Numbered from the stretch's first letter, positions 45,502 to 47,607 are shown. The stretch is 64,000 nucleotides of DNA from Candidatus Poribacteria bacterium (GCA_963663765.2 CAXXUA010000015.1:192001-256000), one strand, 5' to 3'. Notes: generated by a model not told the origin, from the sequence alone. Translations and numbers: made by a program.

Positions 45502-47607
45502 ATGAAAGCAACACTTGCAACATGCAACCTAAATCAGTGGGCACTTGATTTTGACGGTAACTGTGATCGTATCATAGAATCTATAGAACTTGCAAAAGCA
45601 GCTGGTGCAAAGTATCGGCTTGGTCCAGAACTGGAAATAACCGGTTATTCCTGTGAAGACCACTTCCTTGAGGAAGATACATTACAACACAGTTGGGAAT
45701 CACTTGCACGTATAATCAACGGTGGATATACGGATGGTATTTTATGCGACATCGGAATGCCAGTGATGCACAAGAGTGTCCGATACAACTGCCGAGTCTT
45801 TGTCTGTGATGGCAAAATCCTGCTCATACGTCCCAAAAAGATACTCGCTGCGGAAGGGAATTACCGAGAACCAAGATGGTTTGCAGCATGGCAGAAAGGA
45901 TGGACGACAGAACCTTTCCAAGTACCACCTCAGATTTACGAAATTACAGCAAACAGAACAGTACCGATAGGGTGCGCGGTCATCGTGACACACGATACAA
46001 TTATAGCATCCGAAACATGTGAGGAATTGTTTGCTCCACATTCACCACACATAGACCTTGCATATAACGGGGTTGAAATAATTGCAAATGGCTCGGGTTC
46101 ACATCACGAACTCCGTAAACTTGATACGCGACTATCACTTATTTGTAACGCAACTGACAAATGTGGTGGTGTCTACCTATACGCAAATCAACAGGGATGT
46201 GATGGGGGAAGACTTTACTTTGACGGTTGTGCTTCCATTGCGCAAAACGGAGAAATACTGACACAAGGTTCACAGTTTTCTATCAATGATGTAGAAATCG
46301 TAACCGCAACAGTAGACCTTACAGATGTCCGTTCCTATCGCGGTTCAAGAATGAGCGGCGCTGTACAAGCAAGCCATGCGACTAATATACCACAAATCTA
46401 CGTTGACTTTGATATCAGGGATTCCAAAGAACGTCCTGTCACTATACCAAAAGCACATCTCAACATTCACACACCAGAGGAAGAGATTGCACTCGGTCCT
46501 GCTTGTTGGTTATGGGATTACCTCAGACGATCAGAAGCAGCAGGTTATTTCGTTCCGCTATCGGGAGGTTCAGATAGTGGTGCTGTCGCAACTTTAGTTG
46601 GTTCAATGTGCCAACTCGTTGCTAAAGGTATCCTTGATGATGTGCCACATGTCATCAGAGATGCAGAAAAGTTGTTGGGTACTGAATATATCCGAAACAT
46701 AAAAACGAATTTCAATGATCCATCATTAGCTGCACAGAACATCGCCAATCAACTGCTTTACACATGCTATATGGGAACTGCAAACAGTTCGCGGGAAACA
46801 CGACAGCGCGCCAAAGAATTGGCAAGTGAAATTGGGTGTTACCACTTAAATATCAATATGGAATCACTCGTCATAGCATTGCAGAAACTCTTTACTAACA
46901 TCACGGGTAAAACACCAAAGTTCAAAACTGAAGGTGGCAGCTCTATAGAAAATCAAGCACTTCAAAACATACAAGCGCGTCTGAGAATGGTTATCAGTTA
47001 CCTATTCGCACAAACATTACCGTGGGTTCGTAAGAGACGAGGTACGCTGCTTGTACTAGGCACAGGAAACGTTGACGAAGCCCTGCGCGGTTACCTCACC
47101 AAATATGATTGCAGCAGTGCAGACATCAATCCTATTGGTAGCATCAGTAAAACGGATCTTCGCAGCTTTCTCAATTGGGCAAAAGAGCATCTTGGTTACC
47201 CAAGTCTTGGAAATATCTTAGATGCACCACCCACAGCAGAATTAGAACCTATCACTGAAACATACACGCAAACCGATGAAGATGACATGGGAATGACTTA
47301 TGAAGAACTTAGCCAATTCGGGCAGTTGCGTAAAACACATCGATGTGGTCCTGTAAGTATGTTCAAGAAACTTGTGCAGGAGTGGGAACATATACCTCCA
47401 AGCGAAGTTGCTGATAAAGTCAAATGGTTTTTTCAACACTATGCAATCAATCGGCATAAAATGACAACATTAACGCCTTCATACCATGCTGAACCCTATT
47501 CACCAGACGACAACCGGTTTGACCTGCGCCAGTTCCTATATAATACGCGATGGACTTGGCAGTTTCGCAAAATTGACAGGTTGGTAGCGGAGATGAATAA
47601 CGAGTGA
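45502..47607 (+). CDS. nadE: Glutamine-dependent NAD(+) synthetase, eukaryote-type (QNS1/NADSYN1-like)
   Basis: Nitrilase-fold domain ([20 protein letters not shown]) plus PP-loop [69 protein letters not shown]. Confidence 0.95.

What the first reader, a model, noticed from the sequence alone, without database searches (positions are those of the whole stretch)
45502..47607. Eukaryote-type glutamine-dependent NAD synthetase in a bacterial operon
Seen: 701 aa with [70 protein letters not shown] and [25 protein letters not shown]. From recall these match yeast QNS1 and human NADSYN1 far better than typical bacterial NadE. The gene is intronless, has host-like composition and overlaps a bacterial Wzi-like gene, arguing against contamination. 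Inference: ancient eukaryote-to-bacterium transfer of a core enzyme, or a bacterial sister group of the eukaryotic enzyme.
Basis: partly seen in the sequence, partly recalled or inferred. Interest (0 to 1): 0.72.

Follow-up and report, generated by a model that had tools for sequence, protein, structure and literature searches.

The report
Eukaryote-type NAD synthetase in Poribacteria
This bacterium makes NAD with an enzyme of the human and yeast type, which replaced the usual bacterial enzyme in its whole order, and whose bacterial relatives join the eukaryote family tree near its base, so it may bear on where the eukaryotic enzyme came from.

Summary
ORF 45502-47607 (+) encodes a 701-aa two-domain NAD synthetase. 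It scores 875 bits over its full length against PDB 6ofb, and at most 209 bits against bacterial structures.

It is the genome's only NAD synthetase. It is not a one-off: 157 of 158 other genomes of the same Poribacteria order carry it. None of 17 Poribacteria genomes outside the order do, and 16 of those 17 keep a bacterial-type NadE. That pattern indicates a horizontal replacement at the base of the order.

The gene belongs to a wider bacterial clade. This includes four records labelled Chloroflexota or Promineifilaceae, and unlabelled contigs whose neighbouring genes are bacterial.

The clade joins the eukaryote tree near its centre, and the root cannot be fixed:
- One dataset nests the bacteria among eukaryotes, but eukaryote monophyly is not rejected (p-AU 0.27).
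- A dataset without long branches gives monophyletic eukaryotes with the bacteria basal, but the nested tree is not rejected either (p-AU 0.74).

An animal-host origin is rejected (p-AU 2.8e-5). I favour eukaryote-to-bacterium transfer, at about 0.55 against 0.30.

The parts
45502..47607 (+). Gene for a 701-aa glutamine-dependent NAD(+) synthetase of the eukaryotic (NADSYN1/Qns1) type
   Evidence: The ORF is listed. It scores 874.7 bits over its full length against PDB 6ofb_A. It groups with eukaryotes against bacterial NadE with 100/100 support.
45514..46341 (+). N-terminal glutaminase domain (nitrilase or CN_hydrolase fold), residues 5-280. The catalytic residues are E43, K112 and C173, with a second glutamate E123. 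The Y121-R122-E123 'YRE' tunnel loop lies here.
   Evidence: Pfam PF00795 scores 120.7 bits. Roles and human numbering come from passages of PMC6946656 and the alignment.
46507..47328 (+). C-terminal NAD synthetase (N-type ATP pyrophosphatase) domain, residues 336-609, with the PP-loop S354-G-G-S-D-S359
   Evidence: Pfam PF02540 scores 100.9 bits. The SGGxDS motif is kept in 17 of 17 bacterial-clade rows, 26 of 26 eukaryote rows and 3 of 3 outgroup rows.
43850..45199 (+). Upstream neighbour, 449 aa, with no Pfam or NCBIfam family. It travels with the synthetase in Poribacteria family f1.
   Evidence: Searches find no family. It is found beside the synthetase in 57 of 71 Poribacteria loci with full flanks, at a median 77% identity.
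45319..45387 (.). Inverted pair of a 22-nt palindromic repeat, in the 302-nt spacer upstream of the start codon
   Evidence: The window holds 18 matches against 0 expected by chance. The sequence is shown.
47604..49238 (+). Downstream neighbour, a Wzi-like outer-membrane protein. It runs in the same direction, and its first possible start overlaps the synthetase stop codon by 4 nt.
   Evidence: Pfam PF14052 scores 75.8 bits. The junction is shown. It is kept beside the synthetase in 57 of 71 loci.
49242..49943 (+). Second downstream neighbour, a lytic transglycosylase (SLT domain)
   Evidence: Pfam PF01464 scores 84.8 bits. It is kept in 53 of 71 loci.

Best explanation
The gene encodes a working glutamine-dependent NAD synthetase of the eukaryotic NADSYN1/Qns1 type.

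How it works, inferred from the family: the N-terminal nitrilase-fold domain hydrolyses glutamine. The ammonia passes through an internal tunnel lined by the YRE loop to the C-terminal PP-loop domain. That domain adenylates deamido-NAD (NaAD) and amidates it to NAD.

It is the only NAD synthetase of this Poribacteria genome. It completes an otherwise bacterial pathway, since nadA and nadD are present.

The ancestor of the window's order acquired it horizontally, and it displaced the bacterial NadE that all other sampled Poribacteria lineages keep. Since then it has been inherited vertically. Related copies spread to, or from, other bacteria, including lineages labelled Chloroflexota.

The ultimate source was most likely a stem or very early eukaryote. 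I give this direction about 0.55. The function, the horizontal acquisition and the displacement I hold at about 0.9.
For: Function:
- Both domains are present, and the match to 6ofb is full-length at 875 bits.
- E43, K112, C173 and E123, the SGGxDS motif and the Y-R-E loop are intact in 17 of 17 bacterial-clade rows and 26 of 26 eukaryote rows.
- There are no stops or frameshifts in 157 of 158 order genomes.

Sole enzyme:
- The host has one strong PF02540 hit.
- The three weak hits are GMP synthase, MnmA and a generic PP-loop ATPase.
- nadD scores 178.9 bits and NadA 278.3 bits in the host.

Displacement:
- The eukaryote type is in f1 111/111, f2 11/11, f3 28/29 and f4 7/7, and in 0 of 17 genomes of other orders and classes.
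- The bacterial type (NF010588, E<=1e-30) is in 16 of those 17, and in 1 of 158 inside the order. That one, G030, has 15% contamination. G000 has none.

Vertical residence: the four-gene block is kept in 55 of 55 loci whose synthetase is at least 69.5% identical to the query.

A wider bacterial clade:
- The clade has 99* support in FastTree.
- L110, L116, L115 and L169 have bacterial neighbours.

Direction:
- The ML tree of dataset 1 puts the bacteria inside a 95/95* node with Archaeplastida and Amorphea. Stramenopiles, Rhizaria and a ciliate lie nearer the outgroup.
- The best-scoring tree found on dataset 2 is also nested, by 2.37 lnL units.
- Outgroup-free MAD rooting falls inside the eukaryotes in both datasets. 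This is weak, because the scores are nearly flat at 0.194-0.205.
- No verified bacterial lineage breaks the long stem. Three of the deep unnamed rows (P0199, P0158, P0128) and P0133 cluster with giant-virus contigs, and the other deep rows stay unidentified.
- The gene is patchy in bacteria but was found in every eukaryote supergroup sampled.
Against: The direction is not established.
- Eukaryote monophyly, with the bacteria outside, is not rejected (lnL difference 9.84, p-AU 0.27).
- I then removed the ciliate, the three deep rows and one long bacterial row, and added four outgroups. The free ML tree then makes the eukaryotes monophyletic (91/90) with the textbook split of Amorphea against Diaphoretickes. 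The bacteria become a basal grade, with Poribacteria f4 next to the eukaryotes at 97/95*. That fits a bacterial source at least as well.
- The query is about equally distant from all supergroups (52-60% identity; the ciliate is 47%), so no donor lineage can be named.
- No indel separates the bacteria from the eukaryotes or ties them to a subset of eukaryotes.
- No sponge, Discoba, Metamonada, Haptista or Cryptista sequences were in the trees.
- Activity, oligomeric state and expression are untested.
- The Chloroflexota assignment rests on record labels only.
Confidence: 0.55

Rival explanations
1. Bacterial sister or donor lineage. The eukaryote-type enzyme arose in bacteria. Stem eukaryotes received it from a member of this bacterial clade, and today's Poribacteria, Chloroflexota-labelled and other holders descend from, or received it from, that donor lineage.
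For: The careful tree without long branches gives monophyletic eukaryotes (91/90). Its internal topology is canonical: Amorphea 98/95*, Diaphoretickes 91/91 and Rhizaria plus stramenopiles 99/93*. The bacteria are basal and paraphyletic, with f4 plus eukaryotes at 97/95*.

Eukaryote monophyly is not rejected on dataset 1 (p-AU 0.27).

The bacteria are equidistant from all supergroups.

Against: The nested alternative scores 2.37 lnL units better on the same data (p-AU 0.74) and 9.84 units better on dataset 1.

The Poribacteria order is itself a recipient, because the other orders keep a different bacterial NadE.

No verified bacterial lineage breaks the stem of 3.8-4.6 changes per column.

Divergence within the bacterial clade (mean 68% identity) is smaller than within the eukaryotes (mean 57%).

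MAD roots fall inside the eukaryotes, though this is weak.
Confidence: 0.3
2. Recent capture from an animal host, for example a sponge, or eukaryotic contamination of the assembly.
For: Poribacteria are known as sponge symbionts. This is recalled and was not shown by any search here. The protein looks eukaryotic.
Against: A clade of the bacteria plus Metazoa is rejected (lnL difference 72.2, p-AU 2.8e-5).

The gene lies on closed chromosomes of 4-6.8 Mb in many records. It is uninterrupted, has host-like GC, and abuts Wzi-like and SLT genes.

Copies across the order are 63-91% identical, which indicates long residence.
Confidence: 0.02
3. An ordinary, fast-diverged bacterial NadE that only resembles the eukaryotic enzyme by convergence.
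For: None beyond its bacterial host.
Against: It is 59% identical on average to eukaryote rows, against 30% to the nearest bacterial type. It shares 10 indel blocks with all eukaryote groups against the outgroups. A 100/100 branch separates it from bacterial NadE. It falls below all NCBIfam bacterial equivalog cut-offs.
Confidence: 0.01

Closest known systems
Eukaryotic glutamine-dependent NAD synthetase (human NADSYN1/hsNadE, PDB 6ofb; yeast Qns1). That 6ofb is the human enzyme is recalled, but the residue numbers fit those of PMC6946656 with an offset of one.
   Same: It has the same two-domain order, and the alignment is full-length at 875 bits. The Glu-Lys-Cys triad, the second Glu, the Y-R-E loop, His201 and the SGGxDS motif are all shared. 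It is 54% identical to the mammal row and 60% to the best eukaryote rows. It shares all 10 clean indel blocks.
   Different: It is encoded in a bacterium, packed against cell-envelope genes, and serves a bacterial nadA/nadD pathway. Its oligomeric state, its glutamine-versus-ammonia preference and its tunnel behaviour are unknown.
Bacterial two-domain NadE of the Cytophaga/Vibrio kind (PDB 3ilv; plasmid nadE genes of Vibrio, Hymenobacter and Spirosoma)
   Same: It has the same two domains and the same catalytic residues. It is the nearest verified bacterial outgroup.
   Different: Identity is only 26-33%. The tunnel loop reads H-Y-E instead of Y-R-E. Ten indel blocks differ. Scores are 209-233 bits.
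M. tuberculosis-type octameric NadE (PDB 3dla, 3sdb, 6ofc), branch I of De Ingeniis 2012
   Same: It is also a two-domain glutamine-dependent NAD synthetase.
   Different: It scores only 68-72 bits, on the glutaminase domain alone. PMC6946656 reports Phe130 and Pro204 where eukaryotes have Tyr and His, and the query has Tyr and His.
Bacterial-type NadE of the other Poribacteria (NF010588/PRK13981 kind), either fused (544-611 aa) or as adjacent glutaminase and synthetase genes
   Same: It does the same job in sister lineages of the same phylum.
   Different: It belongs to a different, far more distant branch of the family, at the root side of the tree. It is absent from the window's genome and from 157 of the 158 other genomes of its order.
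Giant-virus copies (IMG/VR GVMAG contigs L190-L196 and L200)
   Same: They are eukaryote-type and full-length.
   Different: They sit on long branches. Five of the eight contigs have GC of 21-26%, and the other three 38-45%. They sit deep, or beside stramenopiles, and not with the bacterial clade.

Membership tests
Eukaryote-type glutamine-dependent NAD synthetase (NADSYN1/Qns1; 'branch II' of De Ingeniis 2012) | An N-terminal nitrilase-fold glutaminase fused to a C-terminal NAD synthetase domain, about 700 aa in all | tested here: met
   PF00795 covers residues 5-280 and PF02540 covers 336-609, in a protein of 701 aa.
Eukaryote-type glutamine-dependent NAD synthetase (NADSYN1/Qns1; 'branch II' of De Ingeniis 2012) | Glutaminase catalytic Glu-Lys-Cys plus a second Glu, and the synthetase PP-loop SGGxDS | tested here: met
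   E43, K112, C173, E123 and S354-S359 are present and conserved in all 46 aligned rows. Their roles are taken from PMC6946656.
Eukaryote-type glutamine-dependent NAD synthetase (NADSYN1/Qns1; 'branch II' of De Ingeniis 2012) | Eukaryote-specific tunnel constriction residues (human Tyr123 and His203, against Phe and Pro in the M. tuberculosis type) | tested here: met
   Y121 is present in 17 of 17 bacterial-clade rows and 26 of 26 eukaryote rows, while the outgroups have His. H201 is present, but the three outgroup rows share it, so His alone does not discriminate against that type.
Eukaryote-type glutamine-dependent NAD synthetase (NADSYN1/Qns1; 'branch II' of De Ingeniis 2012) | Closer in sequence, and in insertions and deletions, to eukaryotic than to bacterial enzymes | tested here: met
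   It scores 875 bits against 6ofb and at most 209 bits against bacterial structures. Mean identity is 59% to eukaryotes and 30% to the outgroup. Nine blocks are present, and one absent, together with all eukaryote groups.
Eukaryote-type glutamine-dependent NAD synthetase (NADSYN1/Qns1; 'branch II' of De Ingeniis 2012) | Falls on the eukaryote side of the branch that separates eukaryotic from bacterial NadE | tested here: met
   That branch has 100/100 support in both careful trees.
Eukaryote-type glutamine-dependent NAD synthetase (NADSYN1/Qns1; 'branch II' of De Ingeniis 2012) | NAD synthetase activity with glutamine, and an octameric assembly | not testable with these tools
   This needs enzyme assays and size-exclusion chromatography or cryo-EM. 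I ran no structure or complex prediction.
Bacterial NadE equivalogs of NCBIfam (NF002730, NF010588, NF010587, NF001979) | A score above the curated cut-off of the model | tested here: not met
   Scores against cut-offs are 156.9 vs 473, 129.6 vs 479, 85.3 vs 255 and 58.8 vs 250. Only the domain model TIGR00552 passes (99.7 vs 63.65).

The most novel reading that the evidence does not exclude
The bacterial clade found here (one Poribacteria order, lineages labelled Chloroflexota, and several unlabelled lineages) descends from the lineage that gave stem eukaryotes their NAD synthetase. On this reading the 'eukaryotic' NADSYN1 type was invented in bacteria, and these are its closest living prokaryotic relatives, at about 59% identity instead of about 30%.
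Probability: 0.3. Interest if true: 0.75.

Novelty: new member of a known kind. Interest (0 to 1): 0.55.

Why it matters
**1. A clean case of inter-domain replacement.** A core, normally essential enzyme was replaced across a whole bacterial order by a homologue of the other domain's type. The distributions inside and outside the order are complementary.

**2. It bears on the origin of the eukaryotic enzyme.** De Ingeniis 2012 described the eukaryotic branch as arising from a distant bacterial branch. A bacterial clade about 59% identical to eukaryotic enzymes, joining the tree where the eukaryote supergroups meet, is either the closest prokaryotic kin of NADSYN1 or a transfer from the earliest eukaryotes. 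Better rooting could decide between these.

**3. Practical points.** Bacterial NadE is pursued as a drug target, as stated in PMC3376133 and PMC6946656. Some bacteria carry the human-like form. NCBI's bacterial equivalog models miss this form.

**4. Prior reports.** I found no paper on this in five searches. The supplementary tree and tables of PMC3376133 could not be seen. They might show whether any bacterial sequence already sat in its 'eukaryotic' branch.

Tried and rejected
- **Expression:** no RNA holder was listed for the gene.
- **Promoter and terminator scan:** sites were not above chance (14 against 18.8 expected, and 6 against 5.3).
- **Naming the deep unnamed lineages** (P0158, P0161, P0167, P0186-P0194, P0199, P0261/2, P0270):
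  - The cluster look-ups gave no names for the five deep rows looked up, P0158, P0167, P0186, P0188 and P0261. The profile search returned consensus-like eukaryotes instead.
  - The Atlas gave only eukaryote-dominated clusters.
  - Only the viral scan helped. It placed P0199, P0158 and P0128 with giant-virus contigs, and P0133 with another.
- **Earlier findings:** the look-up returned one unrelated note.
- **Shared indels for polarity:** none separate the bacteria from the eukaryotes.
- **MAD rooting:** the scores are nearly flat, so I treat it as weak.
- **Animal-host origin:** rejected by the AU test.
- **Contamination:** rejected on context and on the order-wide presence.
- **'Phylum-wide':** I inferred this, and one search corrected it to order-wide.
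- **'Nested in eukaryotes near green algae':** I inferred this from the FastTree trees. It was not robust to the model or to taxon choice.
- **Not run:** structure prediction, fold search and complex prediction, because the 875-bit match to a solved structure made them unnecessary.

Full report
**Observation**

- Pfam finds an N-terminal CN_hydrolase domain (residues 5-280) and a C-terminal NAD_synthase domain (residues 336-609).
- Against all PDB chains the best match is 6ofb_A, at 874.7 bits over query 2-698. The best bacterial structure, 3ilv, scores 208.8 bits, and the M. tuberculosis chains score 68-72 bits.
- That 6ofb is the human enzyme is recalled. The residue numbers in the alignment fit those of PMC6946656 with an offset of one.
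- NCBI's bacterial NadE equivalog models all fall far below their cut-offs.
- GC matches the window.
- The stop codon overlaps the first possible start of a Wzi-like gene.

**Host and copy number**

The window is part of a 6.35-Mb genome that is 97.8% complete. Close relatives of the protein come from records titled Candidatus or uncultured Poribacteria. Of the 80 loci kept from 170 relatives, 76 are titled that way and 4 are titled 'uncultured bacterium'.

The genome has one strong NAD_synthase hit, which is this gene. The three weak hits are GMP synthase, MnmA and a generic PP-loop ATPase. A bacterial nadD (178.9 bits) and NadA (278.3 bits) are present. So this enzyme is the only candidate for the last step of an otherwise bacterial NAD pathway.

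**Distribution in the phylum**

I searched the protein in 176 Poribacteria genomes, including G000.
- **Inside the window's order:** full-length matches without stops, 63-91% identical, occur in f1 111/111, f2 11/11, f3 28/29 and f4 7/7. The one miss is G039, which is 95% complete.
- **Outside the order:** of the 17 genomes from other orders and classes, 16 give only marginal hits (E 1e-6 to 1e-10) and 1 gives none.

The reverse search used the bacterial NadE model NF010588 at E<=1e-30.
- It finds a match in 16 of those 17 genomes. The miss is G007, which is 73% complete.
- Inside the order, besides G000, it finds 1 of 158. That genome is G030, which has 15% contamination. G000 has none.

Five of the outside genomes were examined directly. 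They show PF02540 matches of 245-268 bits, in open frames of 267-289 aa, one of 441 aa, and 544-585 aa.

The two enzyme types are therefore complementary. The simplest reading is a horizontal acquisition at the base of the order that displaced the bacterial enzyme.

Of the 80 loci, 71 had full flanks. The block of unknown 449-aa gene, synthetase, Wzi-like gene and SLT gene is kept in all 55 loci whose synthetase is at least 69.5% identical to the query. It is kept in 2 of the 16 more distant loci. This indicates long vertical residence in family f1.

**Who else has this type**

The exhaustive representative search gave hits running continuously from 58% down to 32% identity.

The representatives that could be named are eukaryotes:
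- red and green algae, and a plant
- a brown alga and oomycetes
- a chlorarachniophyte and a slime mould
- a ciliate
- fungi
- animals

The top Atlas clusters are 89-100% Eukaryota.

In a 179-row FastTree, all four Poribacteria families fall in one 53-row clade (99*) together with unnamed metagenome lineages.
- Four records in or near that clade carry NCBI labels: three 'Chloroflexota bacterium' and one 'Candidatus Promineifilaceae bacterium'. One cluster sits on single contigs of 4.0-4.3 Mb. These labels were not verified here.
- Four unlabelled members have bacterial neighbours:
  - a LysR regulator
  - polyphosphate kinase
  - an AI-2E transporter
  - NapC/NirT and planctomycete-type cytochromes
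  - a TolC-like protein
  - in one member, a nicotinate phosphoribosyltransferase gene directly downstream
- As a control, two long contigs that branch beside green algae have eukaryotic neighbours: the proteasome subunit RPN1, ARID and JmjC.
- Giant-virus MAG contigs also encode the eukaryote type. Several of the deep, long-branched unnamed representatives cluster with them.

**Membership**

- The catalytic Glu-Lys-Cys triad, the second Glu, the SGGxDS motif and the Y-R-E tunnel loop are identical in 17 of 17 bacterial-clade rows and 26 of 26 eukaryote rows. The three Vibrio/Cytophagales outgroup rows read H-Y-E.
- All 10 clean indel blocks group the bacterial clade with every eukaryote group against the outgroup. 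None separates the bacteria from the eukaryotes.
- Mean identities are 68% within the bacterial clade, 57% within the eukaryotes, 59% between the two, and 30% to the outgroup. The query is 52-60% identical to every supergroup, except 47% to the ciliate.

**Trees**

I used a subset of what I held.

*Dataset 1* had 49 rows:
- 17 bacterial-clade rows
- 26 eukaryote rows, named or verified by context
- 3 outgroup rows
- 3 deep unnamed rows

I left out the long-branched Necator, Durotheca and Calicophoron, the 1201-aa Lupinus protein, P0383, and most unnamed rows.

Under LG+C20+F+G4 (PMSF), the careful tree separates the outgroup by a 100/100 branch of 4.6 changes per column. It places the bacteria in a 95/95* node, in an unresolved polytomy with Archaeplastida and Amorphea. 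Rhizaria, stramenopiles, the ciliate and the deep rows lie nearer the outgroup. Two AU tests followed:
- **Eukaryotes as one clade:** lnL is 9.84 lower, p-AU 0.27, not rejected.
- **Bacteria plus Metazoa as one clade:** lnL is 72.2 lower, p-AU 2.8e-5, rejected.

*Dataset 2* had 48 rows. It dropped the ciliate, the three deep rows and the long bacterial row P0305, and added four outgroup rows of the same bacterial type.
- The free careful search now gives monophyletic eukaryotes (91/90).
- Its internal topology is textbook: Amorphea 98/95*, Diaphoretickes 91/91 and Rhizaria plus stramenopiles 99/93*.
- Poribacteria f4 sits next to the eukaryotes (97/95*).
- The other bacteria are basal.

The two constrained searches on dataset 2 both reached a tree 2.37 lnL units better than the free tree (p-AU 0.74):
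- **Earlier nested arrangement:** the constraint was chosen after seeing tree 1.
- **Bacteria as one clade.**

MAD rooting without outgroups falls on the opisthokont stem in both datasets, but the scores are nearly flat.

**Reading**

What holds up is that the bacterial clade joins the eukaryote backbone where Amorphea, Archaeplastida and SAR meet. From established knowledge (recalled, not tested here), this is also where the eukaryote root is usually placed. The outgroup is too distant to say on which side of that point the bacteria attach.

The event is therefore ancient, close to the first eukaryote radiation, and it did not come from an animal host.

The Poribacteria order is a recipient in every scenario. 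For the ultimate direction I give three options:
- **Eukaryote (stem or earliest crown) to bacteria, about 0.55.** The reasons are:
  - the slightly better likelihood of nested trees
  - the patchy bacterial distribution
  - the long unbroken stem, which fits evolution along the eukaryote stem
  - the smaller divergence among the bacteria
- **Bacterial source of the eukaryotic enzyme, about 0.30.** The reasons are:
  - the canonical, monophyletic eukaryote tree once long branches are removed
  - the equal distance from all supergroups
- **Something else, the remainder.**

**Literature**

Passages of PMC3376133 call branch II eukaryotic and derive it from bacterial branch I with 97% bootstrap. 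Its supplementary full tree and tables could not be seen.

Passages of PMC6946656 gave the residue roles.

On prior reports: searching Poribacteria together with 'NAD synthetase', found no paper, and none of the papers listed by the other four searches reports a bacterial clade of the eukaryote type. For those papers I saw search listings only.

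Noticed in passing
window 16532-17090; 43735-43770; 45319-45387; 50099-50120; 53647-53715: A 22-nt palindromic repeat has 18 matches in the window against 0 expected by chance. There is a tandem array of about 11 copies with a period of about 46 nt at 16532-17090. Inverted pairs sit in the spacers around the four-gene block. It looks like a REP- or MITE-like element.
   Followed up: partly
L190-L196 and L200 (IMG/VR GVMAG contigs); L197-L199, L201 and L202 (other IMG/VR contigs): Giant-virus MAG contigs encode full-length eukaryote-type NAD synthetases. 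GC is 21-26% in five of the eight contigs and 38-45% in the other three. Five other viral-collection contigs of 84-392 kb encode the Vibrio/Cytophagales bacterial type.
   Followed up: partly
L110 10443-12254 (+): In an unlabelled bacterial lineage with GC 0.68, a nicotinate phosphoribosyltransferase gene lies directly downstream of the eukaryote-type synthetase. This is a functional NAD-salvage pairing that the window lacks.
   Followed up: no
G009-G017 (Poribacteria families f8 and f9), places listed: In six of these genomes (G009 and G013-G017) the bacterial-type NadE matches as separate glutaminase and synthetase pieces. The two pieces are adjacent on one contig in five of them. In G010-G012 the match is read through one in-frame TAG between the two halves.
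   Followed up: no
window 43850-45199 (+): This 449-aa protein has a predicted N-terminal hydrophobic stretch and no Pfam or NCBIfam family. It is kept next to the synthetase in 57 of 71 Poribacteria loci, at a median 77% identity.
   Followed up: partly
G030:C5:3022-4788: This is the only genome of the order with both enzyme types. It has 15% contamination, so the bacterial-type copy may not belong to it.
   Followed up: no
window 50166-52715 (-): This 848-aa protein combines an NTP-transferase domain with an ARMT1-like damage-control phosphatase domain.
   Followed up: no
P0020 (Lupinus angustifolius, 1201 aa): This plant record is nearly twice the usual length for the enzyme, yet it matches the whole query at 51% identity. 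It could be a fused or mis-joined gene model.
   Followed up: no
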